Positions 6,001-9,000 of a stretch of 64,000 bases of DNA are shown one piece after another (position 1 is the stretch's first letter; each line of letters opens with the position of its first letter). Source of the stretch: Escherichia coli (GTDB lineage Bacteria; Pseudomonadota; Gammaproteobacteria; Enterobacterales; Enterobacteriaceae); assembly GCF_009931435.1 (NCBI RefSeq), contig NZ_CP043414.1; one strand, given 5' to 3'. Made by a program: the position numbers.

Positions 6001-9000
6001 AATCTGCTGAAACTGGCGAATGCGCCAGCGTGAAGCCCATGCAGAAACGGACTTGGCCATATCCCGCAGGTTCTCCCCTGTTTCGTCGTCCTGCTCACCA
6101 TCCAGCGCAAACCCATCAATGTTTTTGGATATGTATTTGGCGATGTAACCCGTAGCCGAACCTTTAGCGGGATCGATGGCTTCAACATGGAAACGTGCCT
6201 TTAGCGCGTTTGGCGTTTGCAGTTCTTCGGAGTCGGTAATTCTGGCGTGATAGCAAAGAATATCGCGCACGGTATCCACATCACCAGGACGCATAAAAAG
6301 CAGCATGTGCCAGTGCGGTGTCCCATCGTGGTGAGGCTCTACCACACGAAAACCAAAAACATGGATACCAGCACGGGAAATAGCGGCGCGGGCTTTCGCC
6401 CATACACCGCATAAGTAACGCTGGGTGTCCTGCGGGGTGCAGCCATCCCACTGTGAAACAAAGCCCCCTTTGCTGTGTACCGCATGGAATCGCGATGGCG
6501 CAGTGATGGTGTAAAACTCACCGGCCAGCCCTTCTTCATTGGCCATATCTTCAAATCCTCTCATTCTTACCATTAGCTCACAGCGACGGATCGCCGGATT
6601 AGCAACGCTGCGGTGCACCATGCTGTCCAGCGCAATACGCAGCCCTTCATCATTCAGCAGGTCAAACTTTTTGAAGAACTCAAGGTTCCGCTTTTTCTGG
6701 TCTATCCATTCGCCCAGGGTTTTACGGGACACATAAGCGCTGGCCGCTTTCTGTACTTGCCCCACTGCAATGGCCATATGCTCACGCTGCATATCCCGCG
6801 CCCGCTTAAGACGCAGATACCACCATTCTGGTGCCATCATGCGGAGGATCCCGGATTCAGCCTTACGCGTTTCCAGTTGCCCGCCATTAGCTTCATGTTC
6901 AGCCCAGTACGGCGGCGGATTGTTCAGCATCAGGGAACACGTGCATAAATGGCGGTAAGACTCCAGCGTACGGCGGCGCAGCTCTGCGGCATCGTCAGTG
7001 CTGCCCACAAACTGATTGGTAAAGTCATACAGTGACTGGGAGATCCAGCCAGATATCTGGCCAGCCAGTTTTTTGAGTTCCGGGCGGTCAAGTGACGGCA
7101 GTCGCTCCAGCGACTTACCGAAAGGAAGATCAAGTGCATCAGCGGCCAGTTTGTAACGTGCAGCCACTTTTCGCAGACGTGGCAATACATTCCCGCCGAT
7201 AGTTTTGCGCAGGAATGTATTGGCACGGCGACGCCCGTCACGACCAGCCAGCAGCTTTTCGTAACGGTTGCCAAAATACCCGGCTAACCAGTCGGGTATT
7301 TCATGCAGGTACTGGGATCGCCATTCATAATCCTGTGGGTTTACAGCCCGCAAACGGCGTTCTGTGATCGTTGCATCTGAAGGAGTGCCAGGCGCAAAGG
7401 TTTCACGCCGCCAGGCATTGACGGCGTGGTGTTGGCCAGGCTCCAGCATATCAACCACGGTTAACCCACTTGCGCCAGAAATCTATCAGGAAGGCCACTA
7501 CCAGCGGTAGCCAGAAAACCGCACTCAGAGTGATTAACCCTAAGTCCTCAGCGTCGTGATCAAATTCATCCGGGCATTCGTCCCATAAGAGAAAAGCGAA
7601 AGTGATACAGGCAAACAAGGCATAAAAGCCGGTGATAATTTCCGTCATCATGCCACCACCGCCCGAACATCGATCGCAGGGTTAGCAGGTGACTTAAGAA
7701 TCAGCTCAGCGGCCATTTTCTGGCTTGCAGCTGCTGCACCCACACTACGTGGCGCATTTACCCGAACAGCGTCGAATCCTGCATACAGGTAATGCACCAT
7801 TTCCAGATCGCTATTTGACGCGACAACCTTAATCCCACGCTCAGTCAGGCGGCGCAGCTTACGCGCCAGCCGTCCCTGATCCATGTGCGAAAAACCGCGC
7901 TCATGGTAAGCGGTGAAATTATCGCTATCAGTCAGGTAAGGCGGATCACAATAAACAACGTCATGCCCGTCCCTTACCAAATCAAGCGTTTCTGAATAGT
8001 GGGCAGTAATGAACGTTGCACGTTTCGCTTTTTCAGCAAAAGCGCGGATTTCATCAGCAGGAAAGTAGGTTTTTTTGTACTTACCAAAAGGAACATTGAA
8101 CTGGCCACGGCGATTGTATCGGCACAGGCCATTGAAGCAGTGACGGTTCAGATAAAGAAAACGCGCCGCAGCTTCCACAGATTCAGAACCAAAGGATTTG
8201 CCTGATTGGTTGAAGGCATCACGCACCGCGTAATAGAAAACAGCGCGGCTTTCTTCATTGCCTAATGAACCGGCAGAAAATAAAGCCTCCAGCTCAATGA
8301 GCAATGCATCAGTCTGATAGGCCATTGTCTTATACAGATTAACCAGGTCGGGATTCACATCAGCGATCAGGTACTCGCCATAATCCGTATTCATCATGAC
8401 AGCACATGAACCGGCAAAAGGTTCTATCAGGCGCTTGCCCTCCGGCAGATGGGGAAGCAACTGCGGCATAAGGCGGGCTTTACTGCCCACCCACTTAAGC
8501 GGAGTTTTTACTGCCATGCTGCACCGCCTTTACTGCAAATCGCTGCGGCTTCTTCGCGGATTAACTCAACGATTTCCGTTGCGCTTAAACCTTCATTGAC
8601 GGCATGGGTGGCCAGCTTATCCAGGCGGGTGGAACACAGATCAGCAGCAGCTGCTTTACCTTCCTGCGTGGCTTTGGTGAGCATAGCCAGCAGGTCAGTG
8701 CCTGATTTTGTTGCGGGTAAATCCTGACATGTCATGTGCATTTTGGTTTCCTTAAGGCAAAAGAATCCCCGGCCACCTAAGCTGTGGCCAAAAAATTCAG
8801 GTTGTTAATTAGTGAAAAGCGGGTTGTACAGTGACTGCGGAATGATTCGGTGCTGGAATAAGGTGCAGCTCGTACGTTGTCCGCCACCACTCCTGGATCA
8901 GTGCTTTAATCTCGCCAACACCCAACGCCCCGGCCGTATAGAAAATTGCGCGGATTCCGGCAATTGCTTCAATTTGCGCTTCTTTGCTCTCTGCCTCGCG

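What the first reader, a model, noticed from the sequence alone, without database searches (positions are those of the whole stretch)
7648..8517. Prophage-encoded orphan Dam-family methyltransferase
A DPPY-motif adenine methyltransferase sits in the early operon with no adjacent restriction endonuclease. Such orphan methylases protect phage DNA from host restriction or modulate host gene expression. Its diverged duplicate in the scar at ~13.1 kb shows the gene is a recurrent feature of this phage lineage.
Basis: partly seen in the sequence, partly recalled or inferred. Interest (0 to 1): 0.3.

Follow-up and report, generated by a model that had tools for sequence, protein, structure and literature searches.

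The report
Ordinary Dam methylase in P2-like prophage
This is an intact DNA adenine methylase gene, predicted to mark GATC sites, in the early lytic operon of a P2-like prophage of E. coli; it is real, well conserved, already annotated and ordinary.

Summary
The ORF at window 7648-8517 (minus strand, 289 aa) is a Dam-family (D12 class) N6-adenine DNA methyltransferase. It matches Pfam PF02086 at E=9e-66 and TIGR00571 at 272 bits against a cut-off of 115. It is 43% identical to E. coli Dam. It has DPPY, and it keeps six of the seven EcoDam cognate-complex DNA-contact residues compared; the seventh is Tyr to Phe. The target is therefore very probably GATC.

The gene lies in a 30.9-kb P2-like (Peduoviridae) prophage inserted between mntR and mntS. 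It sits in the early lytic operon, overlapping both neighbouring ORFs, just upstream of replication gene A. No restriction enzyme was detected. dN/dS among relatives is 0.05-0.16. RefSeq already calls the identical protein "DNA adenine methylase". Classified Quadragintavirus and Felsduovirus phages have dam in the same position.

The "duplicate" at 13.1 kb is real but tiny. It is the last 25 codons of another dam, fused to the last ~95 nt of another integrase, inside the prophage's right arm.

The most likely role is topping up GATC methylation on replicating phage DNA. Regulation of host genes in the lysogen is unlikely. Interest is low.

The parts
7648..8517 (-). dam: 289-aa Dam-family (D12 class) N6-adenine DNA methyltransferase, predicted target GATC
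   Evidence: ORF and translation. PF02086 E=9e-66. TIGR00571 272 bits. 43% identical to EcoDam with contact residues conserved. dN/dS 0.05-0.16. RefSeq WP_071290234.1 'DNA adenine methylase'.
8508..8741 (-). DUF2732 gene; its 3' end overlaps the dam start by 10 nt
   Evidence: PF10809 E=1.6e-12, phrog_128, overlap read from the sequence.
7451..7651 (-). 66-aa ORF that reads as having two hydrophobic, possibly membrane-spanning, stretches. Its start overlaps the dam stop (ATGA). This slot between dam and gene A varies among relatives.
   Evidence: No family hit. ESSI2_ev129 has a C5-cytosine methyltransferase in this slot and L008 has nothing there. The membrane-spanning reading is by eye from the sequence; no topology tool was run.
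5434..7458 (-). Replication gene A (P2 gpA-type replication endonuclease), immediately downstream of dam in the same operon
   Evidence: PF05840 E=5e-103; RefSeq 'replication endonuclease'.
8809..10619 (-). Upstream part of the early lytic operon: cox/apl-like (10365-10619), cII (9831-10334), fil-like (9648-9821) and two conserved ORFs of unknown function (9210-9638, 8809-9210)
   Evidence: PF06892 CII E=1e-46. phrog_575 Cox-like, phrog_816/7623, phrog_3935 and phrog_33841.
10680..12360 (+). CI repressor (10680/10722-11303) and tyrosine integrase (11305-12360), divergent from the early operon
   Evidence: PF07022 and PF16452; PF24624 and PF00589; RefSeq annotation.
13095..13173 (-). Fossil of the last 25 codons plus stop of a second, more divergent dam
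   Evidence: blastn 35/43 nt, E=8e-7, against 7717-7759. 84% over 44 nt against the L006 dam. Frame translation NAPRNAGVAAASQKAAEIKMGTLTE*.
13168..13261 (+). Fossil of the last ~95 nt of a second integrase gene, joined to the dam fossil at a shared GCATTT
   Evidence: 78% over 95 nt against 12267-12350. Window 13169-13420 is 95-96% identical to the integrase 3' end plus attR of the L008/L009-type prophages at the same site.
13329..13344 (+). attR core (GCTTTATAATATAGCC), right boundary of the 30.9-kb prophage, 70 bp upstream of mntS
   Evidence: Comparison of the K-12 empty site with both junctions. The core occurs only here within the prophage part of the window.

Best explanation
The gene encodes an active, solitary (no restriction partner) Dam-family N6-adenine DNA methyltransferase of a P2-like temperate phage. 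It most probably uses S-adenosylmethionine to methylate the adenine of GATC by base flipping, as E. coli Dam does. It is most probably transcribed as part of the early lytic operon (cox/apl - cII - fil - ... - DUF2732 - dam - 66-aa ORF - gene A). It would therefore be made after infection or induction, together with the replication endonuclease, and not in the repressed lysogen. Its most likely job is to keep the rapidly replicating phage DNA fully GATC-methylated when host Dam is limiting or absent. Packaged genomes would then resist methylation-sensitive GATC-cutting restriction enzymes of the MboI/DpnII type, and would not present unmethylated or hemimethylated GATC to MutH or SeqA in this cell or the next host. 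Shown here: family membership, intact motifs, conserved DNA-contact residues, purifying selection, operon position, and no detectable restriction enzyme. Inferred: GATC specificity (about 0.85), lytic-phase expression (about 0.75) and the protective top-up role (about 0.55).
For: Family membership: PF02086 E=9e-66 and TIGR00571 at 272 bits against a cut-off of 115. The best PADLOC model is 'orphan methyltransferase' PDLC03729, E=7e-91. Specificity: the three closest solved relatives, EcoDam (E=7e-59), DpnM (1e-33) and T4 Dam (5e-15), are all known to methylate GATC (established knowledge, not a tool result). The next hit, 7M6B, scores only 2e-06. The EcoDam residues described in the cognate GATC complex in PMC4417163 are K9, Y119, N120, L122, R124, P134 and Y138. 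They align to K8, F128, N129, L131, R133, P143 and Y147. DPPY is intact. Constraint: dN/dS is 0.05-0.16 over six homologues with dS up to 0.9, and all motif residues are invariant. Operon: the gene is co-directional with its neighbours and overlaps both of them. dam sits in the same position upstream of gene A in Quadragintavirus ev129 and in Felsduovirus RE-2010, whose Dam is only 48% identical, and in other E. coli prophages. A relative carries a second solitary methyltransferase (C5-cytosine) in the adjacent slot, which fits a self-protection methylation module. No restriction enzyme domain was found in any neighbouring or cargo ORF tested. GATC is not avoided in the prophage: 3.63 per kb, observed/expected 0.86-0.94, the same as the host flank.
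Against: There is no experimental datum for this protein or for any close relative. E. coli hosts are Dam+ (established knowledge), so the activity looks redundant and the selective benefit is inferred. P2 itself has no methylase (PMC3091744), so the gene is not needed for the P2 life style. Motif I reads F-A-G-S-C rather than F-x-G-x-G, and Y119 is Phe; both are invariant in relatives, but their effect is untested. The score falls below the NCBIfam equivalog cut-off for host Dam (254 against 441), so exact functional equivalence is not guaranteed. Restriction enzymes evolve fast and can escape profile searches. Two prophage ORFs remain unassigned: the 193-aa ORF at 12381-12962 and a 411-aa ORF at attL, outside the window.
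Confidence: 0.65

Rival explanations
1. Lysogenic-conversion epigenetic regulator. The methylase is expressed from the prophage in the lysogen and changes host gene expression. aureus prophage.
For: Prophage methyltransferases can reprogramme hosts; PamA is the example cited in PMC13076061. Consensus promoter scans are weak evidence, so a private promoter is not excluded.
Against: The gene is embedded in the lytic operon that diverges from cI. It overlaps both neighbours, and no sigma-70-like site lies between 8517 and 9256. The predicted target GATC is already methylated at about 99.9% of sites by host Dam (PMC6602927). The prophage Dam homologue M.EcoMIV was transcriptionally inactive in E. 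coli EC958 (PMC4659465).
Confidence: 0.08
2. Broad or altered-specificity anti-restriction methylase. The enzyme methylates sites other than, or in addition to, GATC, and so protects phage DNA from several restriction systems.
For: Prophage and plasmid methyltransferases of E. coli are often promiscuous; M.EcoGI and M.EcoGIX are discussed in PMC4659465. Here Y119 is Phe, R137 is Lys, there are two 5-residue insertions relative to EcoDam, and the score is below the host-Dam equivalog cut-off. EcoDam recognises the first base pair least accurately (PMC4417163).
Against: The residues that read base pairs 1, 3 and 4 of GATC in EcoDam (K9, L122, R124, P134) are all conserved, and the hairpin segment NGLCRYNxRGxFNVPFGxYKK is nearly identical to EcoDam. 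All three closest solved relatives are GATC enzymes (for the ranking; their specificity is established knowledge).
Confidence: 0.1
3. Phage-internal regulatory or replication role. GATC methylation by the phage enzyme times a phage process, such as gene A/ori use, promoter activity or packaging, as Dam methylation does for P1 pac cleavage. Restriction evasion would then not be the main role.
For: dam is invariably placed just upstream of, and is probably co-translated with, replication gene A in genera whose Dam proteins are only 48% identical. The requirement of P1 packaging for Dam methylation is from my own knowledge and was not checked here.
Against: There is no GATC cluster in the cI/cox switch region (none between 10485 and 10770). 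Density within gene A is ordinary, 9 sites in 2 kb. P2 and many relatives manage without a methylase (PMC3091744).
Confidence: 0.15
4. Decaying or inactive passenger gene.
For: Its activity would be redundant with host Dam, and a fossil of another dam lies 4.6 kb away.
Against: The frame is intact, all catalytic and DNA-contact motifs are present, and dN/dS is 0.05-0.16 across homologues with dS up to 0.9. The prophage looks complete: all modules are annotated and it has attL and attR.
Confidence: 0.02

Closest known systems
E. coli Dam (M.EcoKDam; PDB 2G1P, 4RTJ)
   Same: Same fold family (PF02086/TIGR00571) and 43% identity over 269 aligned residues. Same DPPY motif. The same recognition residues K9, N120, L122, R124, P134 and Y138 are kept. 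Both are solitary methylases.
   Different: It is phage-borne and sits in a lytic operon. It scores below the host-Dam equivalog cut-off (254 against 441 bits). Y119 is Phe, R137 is Lys and motif I Gly39 is Cys. It has two 5-residue insertions and a different C-terminal tail.
Dam of Escherichia phages ESSI2_ev129/ev040/ev015 (Peduoviridae, Quadragintavirus) and unnamed E. coli prophages
   Same: 84-87% nucleotide and 90-95% amino-acid identity. Same operon position, DUF2732 ... dam ... gene A. Two of the related prophages (L008, L009) sit at the same mntS attachment site.
   Different: The last ~15 codons differ. The slot between dam and A holds a C5-cytosine methyltransferase in ev129, nothing in L008 and a 66-aa ORF here. 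Some relatives also have a 3'-5' exonuclease and a DUF3850 gene upstream.
Dam of Salmonella phage RE-2010 (Felsduovirus; described as related to Fels-2 in PMC5427200, abstract seen)
   Same: A P2-like phage with dam immediately upstream of the replication gene in the early operon.
   Different: Only 48% amino-acid identity, and a zinc-finger gene lies upstream in place of DUF2732.
Other phage or prophage Dam homologues: P1 Dmt, T4 Dam, M.EcoVT2Dam, M.EcoMIV of EC958 prophage Phi2
   Same: All are solitary D12-class adenine methyltransferases carried by phages. M.EcoMIV is likewise a prophage PF02086 protein predicted to be a Dam homologue, and it is silent in the lysogen.
   Different: The sequence relationship is distant: P1 Dmt 39% and T4-type about 25-29%. 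P1 Dmt is a fusion protein (from memory, not checked here). Identity to M.EcoMIV and M.EcoVT2Dam was not measured here.

Membership tests
Dam family / D12-class (alpha-group) N6-adenine DNA methyltransferases (PF02086, TIGR00571) | Full-length profile match above the curated cut-off | tested here: met
   PF02086 222.6 bits against 22, covering profile positions 1-251 of 253. TIGR00571 271.7 bits against 114.85.
Dam family / D12-class (alpha-group) N6-adenine DNA methyltransferases (PF02086, TIGR00571) | Catalytic motif IV (D/N)PP(Y/F) | tested here: met
   D191-P-P-Y194, aligned to EcoDam D181-Y184 and invariant in six homologues.
Dam family / D12-class (alpha-group) N6-adenine DNA methyltransferases (PF02086, TIGR00571) | SAM-binding motif I (FxGxG) lying N-terminal to the recognition hairpin and motif IV (alpha-group order) | tested here: met
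   The order is motif I at aa 34-38, hairpin at 128-149 and DPPY at 191-194. Motif I reads F-A-G-S-C, so the last Gly is Cys; this is invariant in relatives. The effect of the Cys is untested.
GATC-specific Dam enzymes (EcoDam-like recognition) | Conservation of the residues that contact DNA in the cognate GATC complex of EcoDam (K9, Y119, N120, L122, R124, P134, Y138) | tested here: met
   K8, F128 (conservative change), N129, L131, R133, P143 and Y147. Residue roles are taken from PMC4417163.
GATC-specific Dam enzymes (EcoDam-like recognition) | Demonstrated N6-methylation of adenine in GATC | not testable with these tools
   This needs expression in a methylation-free host followed by DpnI/DpnII digestion or SMRT/nanopore sequencing.
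Chromosomal Dam orthologue (NCBIfam NF008152 equivalog) | Score at or above the equivalog cut-off | tested here: not met
   254.4 bits against a cut-off of 441. It is a Dam-family paralogue or xenologue, not the host dam.
Solitary ('orphan') methyltransferase as opposed to a Type II restriction-modification system | No cognate restriction endonuclease gene next to it or elsewhere on the element | tested here: met
   The neighbours are DUF2732, a 66-aa ORF and gene A. No ORF in the early region or among the cargo ORFs tested matches any restriction enzyme model in Pfam, PHROGs or PADLOC. Caveat: a 193-aa ORF and a 411-aa cargo ORF have no assignable family.
P2-like (Peduoviridae) prophage early lytic operon | Cox/Apl, CII, gene A replication endonuclease, divergent CI and integrase, Ogr/Delta, P2-type capsid and terminase genes, and flanking att repeats | tested here: met
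   The closest classified phages are Peduoviridae.

The most novel reading that the evidence does not exclude
The phage enzyme is not a simple copy of host Dam activity. It might have relaxed or extended specificity, for example also methylating near-cognate GATN or NATC sites. Alternatively it might be mechanistically coupled to gpA-initiated rolling-circle replication. Its conserved placement just upstream of gene A across genera would then reflect a replication-linked epigenetic step rather than generic anti-restriction.
Probability: 0.07. Interest if true: 0.45.

Novelty: already known. Interest (0 to 1): 0.08.

Why it matters
It matters little. Solitary Dam homologues on temperate phages of enterobacteria are documented, including in P2-like phages, and this exact protein is already in RefSeq with the correct name. 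One modest open question remains: why would a phage whose hosts are Dam+ keep its own GATC methylase under strong purifying selection, always next to its replication gene? This locus is as good a place as any to test that, but it does not make the question newly tractable.

Tried and rejected
(1) I looked for a restriction partner among all early-region ORFs, the 193-aa cargo ORF and the left-end cargo ORFs, using Pfam, PHROGs and PADLOC. None was found.

(2) I tested for GATC avoidance or enrichment in the prophage. There is none: observed/expected 0.86-0.94, like the host flank. There is also no GATC cluster in the cI/cox switch region.

(3) I tested the pseudogene reading with dN/dS and rejected it.

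(4) I tried to find the donor of the dam/int fossil. blastn 'distant' of 13085-13270 against the phage collection gave no match. The int half matches L008/L009-type prophages at 95-96%, but the dam half matches no fetched dam better than about 84% over 44 nt.

(5) I tested a tandem-prophage origin of the fossil by searching for a second att core between the integrase and the fossil. None was found at up to 3 mismatches, so the origin of the mosaic right arm is unresolved.

(6) I tried to read the 2013 review on phage orphan methyltransferases, by DOI and by a guessed PMC id. It is not held.

(7) I did not use the large protein-database searches, structure prediction or fold search. A 43%-identical solved structure and existing annotation already settle the identity.
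Full report
**Observation**

It runs from 7648 to 8517 on the minus strand, with an ATG start and 289 codons plus a stop. Its product matches the Pfam D12-class N6-adenine methyltransferase family end to end (PF02086, E=8.9e-66, profile positions 1-251 of 253). It also matches the NCBIfam 'dam' subfamily TIGR00571 at 271.7 bits against a cut-off of 114.85. It does not reach the equivalog cut-off for the chromosomal Dam (NF008152, 254 against 441 bits).

Among solved structures, the best matches are:
- E. coli Dam (2G1P, E=6.7e-59)
- DpnM (2DPM, E=1.3e-33)
- T4 Dam (E=5e-15)
- 7M6B, far weaker at E=2e-06

The first three are known GATC enzymes; that is established knowledge, not a tool result.

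**Anatomy of the protein**

A global alignment with E. coli Dam gives 43% identity over 269 aligned positions. DPPY is at residues 191-194. Motif I is F34-A-G-S-C38, with Cys where EcoDam has its last Gly.

PMC4417163 describes the EcoDam residues seen in the cognate GATC complex. R124 reads the guanine of the fourth base pair. L122 and P134 contact the base pair next to it. Y119 intercalates between the inner A and T, and N120 makes a base hydrogen bond. K9 and Y138 recognise the first base pair. These residues align as follows:

| EcoDam | This protein |
|---|---|
| R124 | R133 |
| L122 | L131 |
| P134 | P143 |
| Y119 | F128 |
| N120 | N129 |
| K9 | K8 |
| Y138 | Y147 |

Six of the seven are identical and the seventh stays aromatic. 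The hairpin segment NGLCRYNxRGxFNVPFGxYKK is almost unchanged. I therefore predict GATC specificity with about 0.85 confidence. This is an inference from homology, not a measurement.

**Genomic context**

The window is E. coli chromosome. The dam sequence is 100% identical in two complete genomes, and 27 of 5426 complete E. coli genomes hold a copy at roughly 80% nucleotide identity or better. In strain MFDS1016424 the prophage part of the window differs at only 8 positions in 13.3 kb, while the chromosomal flank differs more. The window therefore comes from another strain carrying the same prophage.

RefSeq annotates the identical protein (WP_071290234.1) as 'DNA adenine methylase'. It sits inside a complete P2-like prophage with the following modules:
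- tail, lysis and capsid genes
- terminase and portal genes
- ogr
- replication endonuclease, then a 66-aa ORF, dam, DUF2732, two unknown ORFs, fil, cII and cox/apl, all on one strand
- divergent cI and int

Comparison with the empty site in K-12 places the 30.9-kb insert between mntR and mntS. The repeated core is GCT(A/T)TATAATATAGCC, and attR lies at window 13329-13344.

dam overlaps the end of DUF2732 by 10 nt, and its stop overlaps the start of the 66-aa ORF (ATGA). That ORF in turn runs into gene A. This fits translational coupling within the early lytic transcript.

A consensus scan finds no sigma-70-like site between 8517 and 9256 on the minus strand. It does find one terminator-like hairpin at 8794-8766, upstream of DUF2732. 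Such scans are weak evidence either way.

**No restriction partner**

None of the early-region ORFs, the 193-aa ORF after int, or the left-end cargo ORFs tested matches a restriction enzyme model in Pfam, PHROGs or PADLOC. The best PADLOC model for the methylase itself is 'orphan methyltransferase'. One caveat applies: restriction enzymes are hard to detect by profiles, and two cargo ORFs (193 aa and 411 aa) have no family.

**Comparative evidence**

The nearest classified phages are Escherichia phages ESSI2_ev129, ev040 and ev015 (Peduoviridae, Quadragintavirus). They are 84-86% identical in nucleotides and 90-95% in amino acids. Salmonella phage RE-2010 (Felsduovirus) has a Dam only 48% identical, yet at the same place immediately upstream of its replication gene. 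By tblastn, 1358 phage records hold a homologue.

Four further E. coli prophages show the same DUF2732 ... dam ... A arrangement. The slot between dam and A varies:
- a 66-aa ORF in this window
- a C5-cytosine methyltransferase in ev129
- nothing in L008

Pairwise Nei-Gojobori estimates over six homologues give dN/dS of 0.05-0.16 with dS up to 0.9, and every motif residue is invariant. The gene is under strong purifying selection and is not decaying.

**The 'scar' at 13.1 kb**

The remnant is real but small. Window 13095-13173 on the minus strand reads NAPRNAGVAAASQKAAEIKMGTLTE*. This corresponds to the conserved C-terminal NAPRSVGAAAASQKxAAELILK of this Dam clade. At the DNA level it matches 35/43 nt, E=8e-7 in a 13-kb search space.

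It is joined at a shared GCATTT to the last ~95 nt of an integrase gene (13168-13261, 78% identical to 12267-12350). The stretch 13169-13420 is 95-96% identical to the integrase end plus attR of the L008/L009-type prophages that occupy the same mntS site.

The fossil lies inside the inserted element. Most E. coli genomes match only from 13326 onward, and just six genomes carry the 193-aa ORF plus the fossil, all at 99.4% identity or better. No second att core lies between int and the fossil.

The 193-aa ORF lies in a low-GC stretch (about 34-40% GC in 200-nt windows). It has a 66% identical homologue in the end-of-genome cargo slot of Yersinia phage vB_YenM_324.

The right arm is therefore a mosaic left by recombination between related P2-like phages, followed by deletions. 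I could not reconstruct the exact path. The fossil does show that a second dam-bearing relative contributed DNA. The synteny data above are the stronger evidence that dam is a lineage feature.

**What it most likely does**

The enzyme most likely transfers a methyl group from SAM to N6 of the adenine in GATC. The operon position implies it is made with the replication endonuclease after induction or infection.

GATC is neither depleted nor enriched in the prophage. There are 3.63 sites per kb, observed/expected 0.86-0.94, against 3.73 per kb in the host flank. This is what one expects of a phage whose DNA is normally methylated at GATC.

My preferred role is topping up GATC methylation on rapidly replicating phage DNA, so that virions carry fully methylated genomes. 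That host Dam is limiting during lytic growth is my own background knowledge and was not checked here. Full methylation would protect against methylation-sensitive GATC-cutting enzymes and would avoid MutH or SeqA action on under-methylated DNA. The neighbouring solitary cytosine methylase in a relative fits a self-protection module.

This role is inferred, at about 0.55. The rivals are:
- a phage-internal regulatory or replication role (about 0.15)
- altered or relaxed specificity (about 0.10)
- host gene regulation in the lysogen (about 0.08)
- an inactive gene (about 0.02)

Published methylomes of E. coli lysogens bear on the proposed test. In one study, prophage Dam homologues could not be distinguished from host Dam, because GATC was already 99.9% methylated (PMC6602927). 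In another, a prophage D12-class Dam homologue, M.EcoMIV, was transcriptionally inactive in the lysogen (PMC4659465).

Comparing the lysogen with a cured strain would therefore most probably show nothing whether or not the enzyme is active. The stated refutation criterion is not valid. The informative experiment is expression in a dam- dcm- host, plus a phage dam knockout.

**Verdict**

This is a correctly spotted but ordinary and already annotated feature: a solitary Dam-family methylase of a P2-like prophage. Novelty: already known. Interest: 0.08.

Noticed in passing
window 12381-12962 (- strand): A 193-aa ORF in a low-GC stretch (about 34-40% GC in 200-nt windows), with a hydrophobic C-terminus, lies 20 bp after the integrase stop. 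It has no Pfam, PHROG or PADLOC family. Its only phage homologue (66% aa) is gp38 of Yersinia phage vB_YenM_324, which sits in the cargo slot at the genome end. In E. coli it occurs in 6 of 5426 complete genomes. It is a candidate moron (defence or exclusion?) of unknown function.
   Followed up: partly
window 13095-13261: A dam 3' stub is fused at a GCATTT microhomology to an integrase 3' stub. The integrase half is 95-96% identical to L008/L009-type prophages at the same mntS site. The donor of the dam half was not found, and there is no internal att core. This points to a mosaic right arm produced by recombination between related P2-like phages.
   Followed up: partly
window 13329-13344 and the K-12 empty site (L002 1505-1520): The attachment core GCTATATAATATAGCC is a near-palindrome in the mntR-mntS intergenic region, 70 bp upstream of the mntS start. 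The prophage replaces all native sequence upstream of it, which could change MntR control of mntS in lysogens.
   Followed up: no
window 7451-7651 (- strand); L004 4963-5973; L008 5964-5967: The slot between dam and replication gene A varies among relatives. It holds a 66-aa ORF with two hydrophobic stretches here (reading by eye, no topology tool run), a 336-aa C5-cytosine methyltransferase in phage ESSI2_ev129, and nothing in another E. coli prophage.
   Followed up: partly
window 8766-8794 (- strand): A terminator-like hairpin (11 pairs followed by a T-rich tail) lies in the 67-bp gap between ORF 8809-9210 and DUF2732. It may divide the early operon into a proximal part (cox, cII, fil) and a distal part (DUF2732, dam, A).
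   Followed up: no
L003 11257-12492 (outside the window, at attL of the same prophage): A 411-aa cargo ORF next to attL has no Pfam or PADLOC match. A related prophage (L009) carries an AIPR-family (abortive infection) gene at the same end, which suggests a variable defence-cargo slot.
   Followed up: partly
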